Assembly: GCF_036507355.1 (NCBI RefSeq) | Contig: NZ_AP027878.1 | Source: Escherichia coli | GTDB taxonomy: Bacteria > Pseudomonadota > Gammaproteobacteria > Enterobacterales > Enterobacteriaceae | Reading direction: 5' to 3' (one strand) | DNA length: 64,000 nt | In this document: positions 3,162 to 41,815 of the stretch, one piece after another | Numbering within the stretch: position 1 is the stretch's first letter | Layout: the number at the start of each line of letters is the position of its first letter | Position numbers and translations under genes: made by a program | The notes under the pieces: model-generated | The model's database searches: none | Told to the model about the DNA's origin: nothing | Seen by the model: the letters and a program-made list of their open reading frames with translations, nothing else

Positions 3162-3491
3162 GTGCTTGACACACAGGAATTAGCTCCAGTTGCTATTGCG
3201 CTCCTGCTTTCAGTAATTGGTGGGATAGGCACGTTCCTGATGGATGTCCGAGACGGTCGCCAGTCTGGCAATTTGTTGGGATTGGTTACGGAGATCTTTG
3301 TTGCAGTGACAGCTGGCGCGGTGGCGTACCTATTGGGGCAACACGAGGGCTGGGAGTTATCAATTACGTACTTAATGGTAACGATAGCCAGCAATAACGG
3401 TCATGAGGTGATTTCAGGGATGAAACGAGTGAATATCGATAGCATTCTGAATGTTCTTACAAGTTTGGTGAAAAAGGGAGGCGGGAAATGA
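3162..3491 (+). CDS. lydA: Holin-like membrane protein
   Basis: 109 aa with two to three TM helices; position as in the P1 lydA-lydB-dar operon (symbol by position). Confidence 0.5.
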   Translation: MLDTQELAPVAIALLLSVIGGIGTFLMDVRDGRQSGNLLGLVTEIFVAVTAGAVAYLLGQHEGWELSITYLMVTIASNNGHEVISGMKRVNIDSILNVLTSLVKKGGGK

Positions 3492-3931
3492 TTGGCTGGG
3501 GTGTATGCGTTCTTGCGTTAGCCTTAGCCGATCGCTATTTGCTAAAACGCAAGGACATCACGCATTTAGAACTTGGTGATGTGGAAATTAAACCGGGTTT
3601 CATCCGGGTGCCGTTCAAATACCGGTCTAAATTCCCGTTTTTGCGCGGCGCAACGGTCAGATATTGGATCCGCGATGTTCAGAAGCCGACGACAGTGATT
3701 GAAGGCGAACAACGTTGTTTGACGTCGGCTGAACAGGGCGAAAACAGTGAATGGTTGTACATACCCACTGAATATATGGGTAAAGGAGAGCGACTGTGGC
3801 ATTTCAACGTCATGGTTACGCATGGCGACTCGTTCATTAACCCGTTGTATCGGATTTTCCCTGTTACTCAGCAAATCCGCAGAAGTTACGTAATAAATCT
3901 CGCACAGGATGTGTCAGATGACGAAAAATAA
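3488..3931 (+). CDS. lydB: Antiholin-like protein
   Basis: 147 aa; N-terminal hydrophobic segment; start overlaps the upstream stop (translational coupling). Confidence 0.45.
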   Translation: MIGWGVCVLALALADRYLLKRKDITHLELGDVEIKPGFIRVPFKYRSKFPFLRGATVRYWIRDVQKPTTVIEGEQRCLTSAEQGENSEWLYIPTEYMGKGERLWHFNVMVTHGDSFINPLYRIFPVTQQIRRSYVINLAQDVSDDEK

Positions 3932-32710: not shown

Positions 32711-33128
32711 TTAACACTCAGATAATGGTTTTAAGTAAAGTGTACAGGATCGGCTCTGCCTTTACCTGTTTATGGTTCTCGTCATAGAAACGCCAGCGAC
32801 CGCGCGTGCGTTCTATTTTCTCTTCACCGCGCGATAATGACAGTTGGCAACTATCACGATCAAACCCTTTTGCCCGCCAGTAACCACGGTTTTTCTCAAG
32901 CTCAAGATGAGTGGACACTTTAGCAGTTGAATATCCCATTTTTCACCTCTGATTGATTGGTGGTGCTAAGTGCGCTACGCGAAATCTGTAGGACTAACAC
33001 CGCCAATTTTTCACAGATTTTACGTAGCGCAACCTTGATCAAATGATCAAGTGGTCACTATTTGACCTGCTAAGGTATTGAACTGTATGGATTTACAGGT
33101 AAATTGATCATATTCAATAACCCTTAAT

Positions 33129-39114: not shown

Positions 39115-39315
39115 TTATCTGCTGCCCGGCATTCTCTGTTTAAGCACAACCATTTCCTGACGGCATAACACAGCAATAGCGGTCCTGACTCCAATTTGCT
39201 TACCAACCAGGTATTGCTTTACCTTGCGGCGACTCACGCCATCAAGAAGCATCTTTAACGCTTCACGGGACAATTTGTTGTATTTGCGTGCCATTAATCT
39301 ACTCCGCAGAACCAT
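39115..39315 (-). CDS. Small basic protein
   Basis: 66-aa ORF overlapping the doc 3' end; coding status uncertain. Confidence 0.3.
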
Positions 39316-39679
39316 ACAATCTACGTAACGTGTCGGCGACAGAAGATACAGATATCTCGCCAGTCGCAGCGCCTACAGTAAGGTCTGCCAGTTCAGGTGA
39401 ATCAAATACCTGCACCCCGTTACGGCGTAGAAATAGCAGCGCACTGTTTAGCGCGGTACGCTTATTGGCATCATTGAATATATGCCCTCTCGCTGTAGCC
39501 ACCAGGTAGGTGGCGGAGACTTCGAAAAGGTCGGTGATCTCTTCGTAGGCAACTCTGGCCTGAACTCTCCCGATAATGGCCTCTGCCCTACCCGGATCAG
39601 ACATTCCCGGCAGGCCGCCGTAGCGGCTTATATTCGCATCATGAAGCGCAATAAGTTCTTCCGGTGATATATGCCTCAT
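39299..39679 (-). CDS. doc: Doc toxin (Fic-fold kinase)
   Basis: 126 aa, [25 protein letters not shown]; start overlaps the phd stop (ATGA). Confidence 0.95.
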
Positions 39680-39900
39680 TATCGGTTAACCAGTTCCTTG
39701 TTGGTGGAGTCCAGGGTGTCAAACAGGGATGCAAATTCAGCATCCAGCGCCGCTTTTTTGTAGGCTTCGAAAGTAGCCTTGCTGACAATTACTGCTGGCT
39801 CACGGCCTCTGCGGGTGATTTCAACCTCTTCCCCGGCTTCAACATTGTTGAGCACTTCAGAAAGGTTGCCACGCGCGGTACGGAAGTTAATGGATTGCAT
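39679..39900 (-). CDS. phd: Phd antitoxin
   Basis: 73 aa, [49 protein letters not shown]. Confidence 0.95.
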
Positions 39901-39972
39901 AAACACCTCGTGTACTCGTTATGTGTACACAATTATAAACTTCACAGGCATAAAGCACCAGCACTTTGCAGC

Positions 39973-40362
39973 TTAAATAACCGGACAATCATCAAATTCC
40001 CCACTTCGGGCATCATTGATGACATGAGTGATCACACCAAAAACAGCATTACTGCCCGTGTATCCATCGTCATCTACTGGTAACGCCTCTTTCTTCCCGG
40101 TGCTTAAATCCTCCAGGTGCTGGCGCGGATACTTCCTGTATCTCTTTATGCGATATTCACCCTCCATAGCGCACACAAGCAGAGAACCATCAACCGGAGT
40201 AAGCGAGGAATCAACCACCAGCAAAGCACCCTGCAATATTCCCTCACGGTGATGGCTATCAGCTGCCCGCATGAAGTAGGTTGCTGATGGATGCCTGATT
40301 AGTTGCTGATCAAGAGAAATTCGGCTTTCAACATAATCCGCCGCAGGAGAAGGGAAGCCCAT
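39973..40362 (-). CDS. humD: UmuD' homologue
   Basis: 129 aa; S24 peptidase-like fold (LexA/UmuD C-terminal domain type); LexA box 20 bp upstream. Confidence 0.85.
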   Translation of the reverse strand: MGFPSPAADYVESRISLDQQLIRHPSATYFMRAADSHHREGILQGALLVVDSSLTPVDGSLLVCAMEGEYRIKRYRKYPRQHLEDLSTGKKEALPVDDDGYTGSNAVFGVITHVINDARSGEFDDCPVI

Positions 40363-40381
40363 AGCGTTTTCACCTCAATAA

Positions 40382-40401
40382 TACTGTTCATTTATACAGT
40401 A
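40382..40401. promoter_or_regulatory. LexA box (TACTGTTCATTTATACAGTA)
   Basis: Perfect CTGT-N8-ACAG core between the divergent humD and 40536 ORF. Confidence 0.7.
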
Positions 40402-40535
40402 TACATTAAAGAGACACCTTTGGTGCAAACGCGTTATGGAGCTTAACCCCTCTGATGACTTTGTGCGCTTTGCTACTATTCATCACCGCTGGATCAGCGT
40501 AACCTCGTAACTAATCAATTAATAAGGAATTAGCC

Positions 40536-41108
40536 ATGCCTGCCCGCATTCCTCTCGATCCTGCATTGCCCAAAAATTTTGACTGCACTCCTAACGAGAA
40601 ACGCTCCAAAGCCCATCTGGACGCCTGGTGGGACCACCCCTATGGAGTTACAGAACCTGACGGGAAAATTGTTGTTTATTGTCTGAACGGTGGCGCGTGG
40701 GACCGTCCATCCGTGCTTGGTTTTGTAGATAACTATGATGAAGCCTGTGAACTTGCCGAAAAACAGCAAGCTAGATGGGTCAAAACACGGTCTAAACCGT
40801 CATTCATGTTTTCAATAGAACCGCCATTTATACTGGCAAGGATGCCGCAGCGACCGGATCATCAACAAGAAATTGTTGCTGAATTTTCCTCAAGGGATGA
40901 GATGAATCTCTTCTCATTAAAGCAGGAAGAAAGGGATCGCGTCGAAGTGTCTCCAACTCTCGACCACAACCGGATGAACCTGGCCCAACTCGCCTGGTAC
41001 AGCAAAGAATTAGAGATGTCTATTGCCCGACTTGAAAACGAAAAAGCCGCTATCCAAGCCCAGCATGAAGCTGTCATTGCCAGGATACGAGAAGTTCAAA
41101 ACGGTTAA
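40536..41108 (+). CDS. Hypothetical protein, possibly LexA-regulated
   Basis: 190 aa, divergent from humD across the LexA box. Confidence 0.45.
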   Translation: MPARIPLDPALPKNFDCTPNEKRSKAHLDAWWDHPYGVTEPDGKIVVYCLNGGAWDRPSVLGFVDNYDEACELAEKQQARWVKTRSKPSFMFSIEPPFILARMPQRPDHQQEIVAEFSSRDEMNLFSLKQEERDRVEVSPTLDHNRMNLAQLAWYSKELEMSIARLENEKAAIQAQHEAVIARIREVQNG

Positions 41109-41114
41109 CTACCG

Positions 41115-41378
41115 CTATTTCTTTACGGCATCATCTTTCTGATATGCCGGATCGCTCCCTTTTGGCAACTGGAGGCTTAACTGCCGGTAGTGCCGTAGCC
41201 GTTCCATGAAATAGGTGCGCAGATTCTCTGGTTGCTCGCGGGCTACCTGTTCAGCTATGACAGGTATGTTCAATCGCTCTTTGTACGCCACACCGCTGGC
41301 AGCCAGATCAACGTTAACCTTATCCCGTTCTTCCTGACTTTTAGCTGCAATATTCCAATCGTACATATCAAATCCCAT
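41115..41378 (-). CDS. hot: DNA polymerase III theta-subunit homologue
   Basis: [43 protein letters not shown] closely parallels E. coli HolE. Confidence 0.75.
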
Positions 41379-41815
41379 CCAGAATAATTGAGTAACGACT
41401 ATTATTTAACCAGCAAAGTAACTTTTAATTTTTTTTCTTCTCCCATTGATTTTTGTGCACAGCTTATCTGCCTTGCCGTGCGCAGAATCAACTTTTTTCT
41501 TCCTGATTTATCCACAAAGTTATGCACTTGCAAGAGGGCCATTTTCTAAATATTGTGATGCTTCACAAATGAAATGAATTTTGATTAATGAAGATAAGGA
41601 GAAAATTTGAGATGCAATCATGACGTTAATAGATAGGGTCTGCATTACAGACCCCACCCGCATCAAGGAATTAGCCGTTCCCTGATGTTGTTCCGAAAAC
41701 ATGTGCCGTAAGCTCACGTTAACGACTTTCTTTCACCGAATCCAACTATATAAGGGTTGGGTTTCTACGTCAACGTGAGCAAGTGCTCCTTTACATTTGA
41801 CAAGGAACCACCTTA

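What the first reader, a model, noticed from the sequence alone, without database searches (positions are those of the whole stretch)
40382..40401. Perfect LexA box between humD and a divergent 190-aa ORF
TACTGTTCATTTATACAGTA lies 20 bp upstream of humD and about 135 bp from the divergent ORF, so both are probably SOS-controlled. The 190-aa protein has no recognised family.
Basis: seen in the sequence. Interest (0 to 1): 0.3.

Follow-up and report, generated by a model that had tools for sequence, protein, structure and literature searches.

The report
Known phage P1 humD SOS operator
The 20-bp palindrome is a genuine, very probably functional LexA (SOS) operator, already annotated in phage P1 since 2004; it belongs to the DNA-damage-tolerance gene humD, and the neighbouring gene lxr is an inserted passenger whose SOS control remains unproven.

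Summary
The window is a P1-like phage-plasmid, 96.6% identical to phage P1 in this region. TACTGTTCATTTATACAGTA sits exactly at 40382-40401, 19 nt from the humD start codon and 134 nt from the divergent 190-aa ORF. No shuffle of 100 gave a perfect match.

The P1 and P7 GenBank records already mark this site as a LexA binding site, and the 190-aa ORF is P1 gene lxr ("LexA regulated function"). The finding is therefore already known.

What the tools add:
- **The box belongs to humD.** A strong LexA box sits upstream in all 11 humD-like loci and the one umuDC operon examined, from otherwise unrelated phages. In 9 loci it ends 14-18 nt before the start codon, whatever gene lies upstream. A full-length umuDC operon has the same geometry.
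- **Lxr relatives without humD have no box.** This held in six different contexts.
- **lxr is a swappable module.** In about two-thirds of P1-like plasmids a ~0.7-kb lxr module next to the box is replaced by ~70 bp, while box and humD stay.
- **Lxr has no known function.** It belongs to a large plasmid and phage family (481 clusters) with a confident predicted structure but no recognisable fold or Pfam family.

SOS control of humD is well supported. SOS control of lxr rests on adjacency only. No experimental test was found in the papers I could read.

The parts
40382..40401 (.). LexA (SOS) box TACTGTTCATTTATACAGTA, the humD operator
   Evidence: unique; 0 of 100 shuffles. (index 4.3, like the recA and sulA operators). 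(annotated as a LexA protein_bind site in P1 and P7). (conserved upstream of humD-like genes in unrelated phages).
39973..40362 (-). humD, a pre-truncated UmuD'-like protein (129 aa, Peptidase S24)
   Evidence: PF00717, 36.1 bits against a cut-off of 23.3. (phrog_811, UmuD-like). (99-100% identical to P1 and P7 HumD). (residue 2 aligns with residue 1 of UmuD', which is Gly25 of UmuD).
40371..40376 (-). humD Shine-Dalgarno sequence GAGGTG, between the box and the ATG
   Evidence: Read from the sequence.
40398..40428 (-). Proposed SOS promoter of humD: -35 TTGCAC (40428-40423), 19-nt spacer, -10 TATACT (40403-40398). The -10 overlaps the box. This is an inference.
   Evidence: best - strand candidate in the region, score 8.16; scores that high occur about 1.6 times per kb, so it is not significant alone. 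(a -35-like hexamer 17-19 nt before a box-overlapping -10 in N15, BTP1, MII_001, HK639, L021 and the umuDC operon L017).
40536..41108 (+). lxr (190 aa): N-terminal alpha/beta domain (1-~130) plus one long C-terminal helix (149-188); function unknown
   Evidence: 93.7% identical to P1 Lxr. (conserved family; invariant C49, G52, G53, D56, R57, C71, R85, P107). (AlphaFold2 pLDDT 88 and 91).
40436..41109 (+). Approximate extent of the exchangeable lxr module (own leader plus CDS). It is absent from most P1-like plasmids, where ~70 bp stand in its place.
   Evidence: about two-thirds of 636 plasmids match only up to ~40410-40412. (homology to lxr-less L021 resumes at 41110). (RCS47, D6 and pCREC-629_2 have hot directly next to box and humD).
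40452..40479 (+). Best-scoring but weak candidate promoter for lxr (-35 CTGATG, 16 nt, -10 TACTAT), 51 bp beyond the box
   Evidence: score 7.5. The + strand candidates that overlap the box score only 4.3-4.5. This stretch is conserved among lxr-carrying variants.
41115..41378 (-). hot (homologue of the DNA polymerase III theta subunit), the upstream neighbour in the ancestral hot-box-humD arrangement
   Evidence: PF06440, E 5e-34..
39299..39900 (-). phd-doc toxin-antitoxin operon downstream of humD (context)

Best explanation
The palindrome is the LexA operator of humD. In the plasmid prophage state a host LexA dimer sits on 40382-40401. That position covers the -10 and the transcription start of a weak promoter that reads leftwards into humD (proposed -35 TTGCAC, -10 TATACT), and so keeps humD off. 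DNA damage activates RecA, LexA cleaves itself, and humD is transcribed. HumD starts exactly where RecA-mediated cleavage would cut UmuD, so it needs no activation step and can pair at once with host UmuC for translesion synthesis. Transcriptional control by LexA is therefore its main gate. The operator, Shine-Dalgarno sequence and start-codon spacing are inherited from a umuD-type operon. lxr is a separate ~0.7-kb accessory module inserted between hot and this operator in a minority of P1-like elements. It brings its own leader and most likely its own promoter, so its control by LexA is unproven and, on balance, unlikely or weak. Shown here: the site, its rarity, its conservation, its linkage to humD and the module boundaries. 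Inferred: the promoter positions, LexA binding and SOS induction.
For: Perfect box, 0 of 100 shuffles. The index is in the range of strong E. coli operators, and the only two outliers in 64 kb are the two LexA sites annotated in P1. One strong box lies upstream in all 11 humD-like loci and the one umuDC operon examined. It ends 14-18 nt before the start codon in RCS47, D6, CMS-2020a, N15, HK639, BTP1, Huey, yong1 and MII_001, whether the upstream gene is hot, a tail fibre gene or gtrA. It ends 20 nt before the true start of a full-length umuD. The flanks are otherwise unalignable, so the box is the only conserved element. A -35-like hexamer 17-19 nt before a box-overlapping -10 recurs. HumD residue 2 aligns with residue 1 of UmuD', with the Ser and Lys of the dyad aligned. 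Box and humD are retained while the lxr side is replaced in about two-thirds of 636 plasmids. Lxr homologues without humD lack any LexA-like site in six contexts, including a P1-like Salmonella plasmid that has lxr but no humD.
Against: No LexA binding or SOS induction data for this site were found in the papers I could read. The proposed humD promoter has a 19-nt spacer, and its score is not significant on its own. The tool's stricter promoter scan found nothing in the intergenic region. The P1 record instead predicts PhumD about 480 bp upstream, inside lxr. The LexA matrix was recalled from memory. A box-overlapping lxr promoter (TTCACC, 18 nt, TATACA) exists as a weak candidate, so co-regulation cannot be excluded.
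Confidence: 0.8

Rival explanations
1. Bidirectional SOS operator, which is the first reader's view and the 2004 P1 annotation. One LexA dimer on the box represses two divergent, overlapping promoters, so both humD and lxr are SOS genes, with lxr carrying a 5' leader of about 130 nt.
For: The box lies in the 173-bp humD-lxr intergenic region. P1 annotates it as 'in the regulatory region of lxr and humD'. Weak + strand promoter candidates overlap the box: TTCACC/18/TATACA and ATAATA/18/TACATT. Divergent pairs sharing a LexA site exist: dinI and the umuD'-like gene in phiKO2, where the site is annotated, and in HK140.
Against: The box-overlapping lxr candidates score only 4.3-4.5, a level reached about 16-18 times per kb, while the best candidate lies 51 bp beyond the box. 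Lxr homologues in six other contexts have no LexA site, including a P1-like plasmid with lxr but no humD. lxr sits in a module whose boundary is next to the box. P7 annotates the same site for humD only.
Confidence: 0.3
2. LexA acts as a roadblock. humD is transcribed from the promoter that the P1 record predicts inside lxr, about 480 bp upstream, or by read-through from hot and its late promoter. LexA bound just before the ribosome-binding site blocks elongation rather than initiation.
For: The P1 annotation places PhumD inside lxr. hot and humD are co-oriented and adjacent in the common lxr-less arrangement.
Against: The predicted PhumD is absent wherever lxr is absent, yet box and humD persist. 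In N15, HK639, BTP1 and others the upstream gene is unrelated or divergent, and a -35/-10 pair overlapping the box is present. The same geometry occurs in a umuDC operon.
Confidence: 0.1
3. The palindrome is a chance match or is bound by some other protein, with no SOS role.
For: No direct binding data were found.
Against: 0 of 100 shuffles gave a perfect match. Position and sequence are conserved across unrelated phages while the flanks diverge. The scan recovers exactly the annotated P1 LexA sites.
Confidence: 0.02

Closest known systems
LexA binding site between lxr and humD of phage P1 (GenBank AF234172, AF234173, NC_005856; the same site in P7, AF503408)
   Same: Homologous locus: 96.6% DNA identity, the same 20-mer, the same gene order doc-phd-humD | box | lxr-hot. 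Annotated there as a LexA protein_bind feature.
   Different: Only allelic differences: Lxr is 93.7% identical, and one base next to the box differs. My analysis disagrees with the P1 record on the position of PhumD and on the implied control of lxr.
umuDC operator and promoter (SOS box overlapping the -10, about 20 nt before the start codon)
   Same: Same operator type and the same spacing to the start codon: 19 nt here against 20 nt in the phage-borne umuDC operon L017, whose promoter is TTGATC-17-TACTGT. The encoded protein is a UmuD homologue.
   Different: humD lacks codons 2-24, so it is born as UmuD', and has no umuC partner gene. The -35 is weaker and the spacer is 19 nt.
phiKO2 and HK140 divergent pair of dinI and a umuD'-like gene sharing a LexA site
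   Same: A single LexA site in a short divergent intergenic region upstream of a humD-like gene. The phiKO2 record annotates the site.
   Different: There the divergent partner, dinI, is itself a classic SOS gene. Here the partner, lxr, belongs to a family that shows no LexA boxes elsewhere.
The second P1 LexA site, at P2coi and the cre regulatory region
   Same: It is also present in this window (33081-33100) and is also annotated in P1, at positions 46-65. It links the prophage to the SOS response.
   Different: The match is weaker (index 7.9). It overlaps a promoter reading towards the immunity region rather than a repair gene.

Membership tests
Gammaproteobacterial LexA (SOS) box | 20-bp palindrome with a CTG-N10-CAG core, matching TACTG(TA)5CAGTA | tested here: met
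   TACTGT-N8-ACAGTA with 0 mismatches.
Gammaproteobacterial LexA (SOS) box | Score within the range of validated operators and clearly above the genomic background | tested here: met
   Index 4.3 against 0.8-10 for 27 known operators; the background in the window starts at 12.65. The matrix was recalled from memory.
Gammaproteobacterial LexA (SOS) box | Overlaps the promoter or transcription start of the regulated gene | tested here: inconclusive
   Predicted only: -10 TATACT at 40403-40398 overlaps the box, and the geometry is shared with umuDC. No transcription start data were found.
Gammaproteobacterial LexA (SOS) box | Conserved upstream of orthologous genes in other genomes | tested here: met
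   Present upstream in all 11 humD-like loci and the one umuDC operon examined, in 9 of them 14-18 nt from the start codon.
Gammaproteobacterial LexA (SOS) box | LexA binding, and derepression on DNA damage | not testable with these tools
   No experimental report was found in the held literature.
HumD / UmuD'-like proteins (Peptidase S24) | S24 peptidase-like domain | tested here: met
   PF00717, 36.1 bits against a cut-off of 23.3. 1umu UmuD', E 2.4e-23.
HumD / UmuD'-like proteins (Peptidase S24) | Starts at the UmuD Cys24/Gly25 cleavage point, with no N-terminal arm | tested here: met
   Residue 2 aligns with UmuD' residue 1 and with UmuD residue 25 (8gmt_B, 25-136).
HumD / UmuD'-like proteins (Peptidase S24) | Substitutes for UmuD' in SOS mutagenesis | not testable with these tools
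   Reported for P1 HumD by McLenigan et al. 1999. I saw only the title, in reference lists; the paper is not held.
P1 Lxr orthologue | Full-length similarity to P1 Lxr and the same position between humD and hot | tested here: met
   93.7% identity over 190 aa, with synteny.
SOS regulon membership of lxr | LexA box linked to the gene across its homologues, or overlapping its promoter | tested here: not met
   No LexA-like site lies upstream of Lxr homologues in L003, L004, L005, L018, L022/23 or L027/28. The best promoter candidate is 51 bp from the box.
Known DNA-binding or antitoxin folds for Lxr (HicB-N, AP2, dsRBD-like beta3-alpha modules) | Significant structural or sequence similarity | tested here: not met

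The most novel reading that the evidence does not exclude
In the P1 lineage the insertion of the lxr module next to the humD operator has placed a member of a large, uncharacterised plasmid and phage protein family under SOS control. The family has 481 clusters at 50% identity, a confident predicted structure with no recognisable fold, invariant CLNGGxWDR and QRPD motifs, and distant members fused to an antitoxin-like N-terminal motif. Lxr would then perform a new damage-induced function, for example a regulator or an anti-defence or stability factor. That would make P1 a convenient model for discovering what the family does.
Probability: 0.2. Interest if true: 0.4.

Novelty: already known. 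Interest (0 to 1): 0.12.

Why it matters
It matters little as a discovery. The site and its interpretation have been in the P1 and P7 GenBank records since 2004, and humD is generally treated as an SOS gene. The useful outcome is a correction of emphasis. The operator is a humD or umuD-type operator that travels with humD across many temperate phages. The name 'LexA regulated function' given to lxr rests only on adjacency. About 12.5% of complete E. coli genomes carry this humD region, almost always on P1-like plasmids. An SOS-gated, pre-activated UmuD' could therefore influence mutagenesis under antibiotic stress. Lxr is also a tractable entry point to a widespread family of unknown function.

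Tried and rejected
- **Consensus promoter scan of 39850-41450:** nothing in the intergenic region. I replaced it with a rough PWM scan, whose scores are not significant on their own.
- **Phylogenetic footprinting of the lxr leader:** uninformative, because P1, P7 and a variant whose Lxr is 79% identical are 96% identical there. The leaders of more distant Lxr homologues are unrelated.
- **Literature:** the P1 genome paper and the HumD paper are not held. The Ref paper measured humD, phd and hot only after thermal induction of the lytic cycle, not after SOS induction. The P1vir RNA-seq paper mentions neither gene. The CRISPRi screen says only that lxr and humD are non-essential.
- **Alphaproteobacterial LexA motif upstream of the Bradyrhizobium homologue:** only chance-level hits, none in the intergenic region.
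- **Chance palindrome:** rejected.

Full report
**Observation.** The 20-mer TACTGTTCATTTATACAGTA lies at window 40382-40401. It is the only perfect TACTGT-N8-ACAGTA in the 64-kb window, and none of 100 dinucleotide-preserving shuffles contained one. At up to 2 mismatches the pattern is no longer significant, with about one hit expected. The box lies 19 nt from the humD start codon (CDS 39973-40362, - strand) and 134 nt from the start of a 190-aa ORF (40536-41108, + strand). I scored the window with a heterology-type index built from 27 E. coli LexA operators recalled from memory. The box scores 4.3, similar to the recA, sulA and lexA operators. Only one other site stands out (33081-33100, index 7.9), and the background starts at 12.65.

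**What the locus is.** The region is 96.6% identical to phage P1, with the gene order pacB-pacA-lpa-pdcB-pdcA-doc-phd-humD | lxr | hot. The P1 GenBank records already carry a protein_bind feature at the homologous 20-mer: 'LexA binding site in the regulatory region of lxr and humD'. They name the 190-aa ORF lxr, 'LexA regulated function'. The P7 record annotates the same site as 'regulation of humD expression' and calls the ORF Upf94.2. The second outlier in my scan corresponds exactly to the other LexA site annotated in P1, at positions 46-65, overlapping P2coi in the cre regulatory region. The finding therefore rediscovers a 2004 annotation. I found no experimental test of this site in the papers I could read. 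A review-type paper simply states that humD is LexA-regulated. A CRISPRi screen found lxr and humD non-essential. The Ref study measured humD only after thermal induction of the lytic cycle. The P1 genome paper and the HumD paper themselves are not held.

**Which gene owns the box.** I fetched 11 humD-like loci and one full-length umuDC operon from phages that are otherwise unrelated and scanned them.
- Every locus has exactly one strong LexA box (index 0.8-5.8).
- In RCS47, D6, CMS-2020a, N15, HK639, BTP1, Huey, yong1 and MII_001 the box ends 14-18 nt before the humD-like start codon. This holds whether the upstream gene is hot, a tail-fibre gene or a divergent gtrA.
- In phiKO2 the box ends 44 nt upstream, next to a divergent dinI, and that record annotates a LexA site.
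- In HK140 the box precedes a small ORF that heads the humD operon.

An alignment of the upstream regions shows that the box is the only conserved element. In the full-length umuDC operon (L017) the box ends 20 nt before the true start codon. Its left half forms the -10 of a TTGATC-17-TACTGT promoter. HumD residue 2 aligns with residue 1 of UmuD', which is Gly25 of UmuD, and the Ser and Lys of the catalytic dyad are aligned. So humD looks like a umuD gene that lost codons 2-24 but kept its operator, ribosome-binding site and spacing.

**Lxr relatives lack LexA boxes.** The N-terminal ~130 residues of Lxr have homologues on about 900 plasmids, mainly from Klebsiella, Citrobacter, Salmonella, Aeromonas and Bradyrhizobium. 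I examined six contexts that lack humD:
- a K. variicola IncFIB plasmid;
- a Citrobacter plasmid;
- a Bradyrhizobium repABC plasmid;
- a Salmonella P1-like plasmid that has lxr but no humD-phd-doc;
- a Klebsiella-type element where the gene sits among RecA, gp32 and Pol III alpha genes;
- a context next to a Fic gene.

None has a LexA-like site upstream; the best index anywhere nearby exceeds 10. The alphaproteobacterial LexA motif is also absent upstream of the Bradyrhizobium homologue.

**lxr is an exchangeable module.**
- Of 636 plasmids matching window 40300-40560, only 221 cover at least 80% of that query, which includes the lxr side. The listed examples of the rest match humD and the box and stop at about 40410-40412.
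- The common arrangement is hot, box, humD (RCS47, D6, pCREC-629_2).
- Direct alignment shows homology up to about 40411, with weaker similarity to about 40435 that covers the proposed -35. Homology resumes at 41110, just after the lxr stop codon. About 70 bp replace the ~0.7-kb lxr module.
- In complete E. coli genomes, 681 of 5426 carry part of the region, 692 of the 709 matching places lie on plasmids, and 179 genomes carry the full humD-box-lxr form.

**Promoters (inference).**
- The strict consensus scan found nothing in the intergenic region.
- With a rough sigma-70 matrix, the best leftward candidate is -35 TTGCAC (40428-40423), a 19-nt spacer and -10 TATACT (40403-40398). It overlaps the box. 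Its score of 8.16 is not significant alone. It is matched by TTCACA-18-TATACT in the lxr-less variant and by similar pairs in N15, BTP1, MII_001 and HK639.
- The P1 record instead predicts PhumD inside lxr, about 480 bp upstream. That promoter cannot exist where lxr is absent, yet box and humD persist there.
- For lxr, the best candidate (CTGATG-16-TACTAT, 40452-40479) lies 51 bp beyond the box. Candidates that overlap the box score only 4.3-4.5.

**What Lxr is.**
- It has no Pfam, NCBIfam or PADLOC family. It falls in PHROG 6164, of unknown function.
- The family is real and conserved, with invariant C49, L50, G52, G53, D56, R57, A70, C71, A74, R85 and P107. An exhaustive profile search found 481 clusters at 50% identity.
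- AlphaFold2 gives confident models: pLDDT 88 for the full protein, and pLDDT 91 with pTM 0.78 for the N-domain. The model is an alpha/beta domain followed by one long helix.
- I could not trace the basis for the name 'DNA-binding protein' that NCBI and UniRef records give many members.
- Some distant members carry an N-terminal extension that matches the PaaA2 antitoxin motif above its cut-off in one case (P0104). In six others it matches the start of Pfam Glyoxalase_8 below the cut-off.

**Verdict.** SOS control of lxr is an old label without comparative or experimental support. The finding is already known, so interest is low. The residual value is the refined promoter and operator model for humD, and the open question of what the Lxr family does.

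Noticed in passing
window 33081-33100: A second LexA-like site, AACTGTATGGATTTACAGGT (index 7.9), lies between cra/cre and the imcA-imcB-coi-c1 block. It corresponds to the LexA site annotated in P1 at positions 46-65, which overlaps promoter P2coi.
   Followed up: yes
L001 3441-3467 (P1), roughly window 40840-40866: The P1 GenBank record places the predicted humD promoter inside lxr, about 480 bp upstream of humD. Relatives that lack lxr keep box and humD, which argues for a promoter overlapping the box instead.
   Followed up: partly
L018 3752-3771 (Salmonella plasmid p21-SA00706-0): A strong LexA box (TACTGTATTTTCATACAGTA, index 2.9) lies 15 bp upstream of an uncharacterised 88-aa ORF (3470-3736, - strand). 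This P1-like plasmid has no humD, so the ORF may be another SOS-controlled accessory gene.
   Followed up: no
window 40536-41108; proteins P0091-P0234: The Lxr N-domain family is large (481 clusters at 50% identity). It carries the motifs CLNGGxWDR and QRPD and two invariant cysteines. Many distant members have an N-terminal extension of about 60 residues (pattern ATLxAKxKRxAKxxAK...HSxALExxAxxxGYxSWHxL). The extension matches the PaaA2 antitoxin motif above its cut-off in P0104 and the start of Glyoxalase_8 below the cut-off in six others.
   Followed up: partly
L022-L026, 4001-4396: In Klebsiella-type contigs of about 110-136 kb, the short Lxr homologue lies next to a HEPN/Toprim gene, inside a cluster that encodes RecA, gp32-like SSB, a 5'-3' exonuclease and a Pol III alpha subunit. 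That is an unusual plasmid or phage-plasmid replication island.
   Followed up: no
L017 1366-1848 (Klebsiella phage ST846-OXA48phi9.2): The annotated umuD CDS starts upstream of, and runs through, its own LexA box. The true start is probably the ATG at 1429, giving MQFYTPVEL..., 20 nt after the box.
   Followed up: partly
L005 3971-4402 (Bradyrhizobium repABC plasmid): An Lxr N-domain homologue sits alone in the intergenic space between repA and the traI-trb operon of an alphaproteobacterial conjugative plasmid. This shows how far the family reaches beyond enterobacteria.
   Followed up: no
whole window: Over 40300-41120 the window is 100% identical to several E. coli P1-like plasmids, for example NZ_CP063505.1. 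It is therefore a natural P1-like phage-plasmid rather than laboratory P1.
   Followed up: partly
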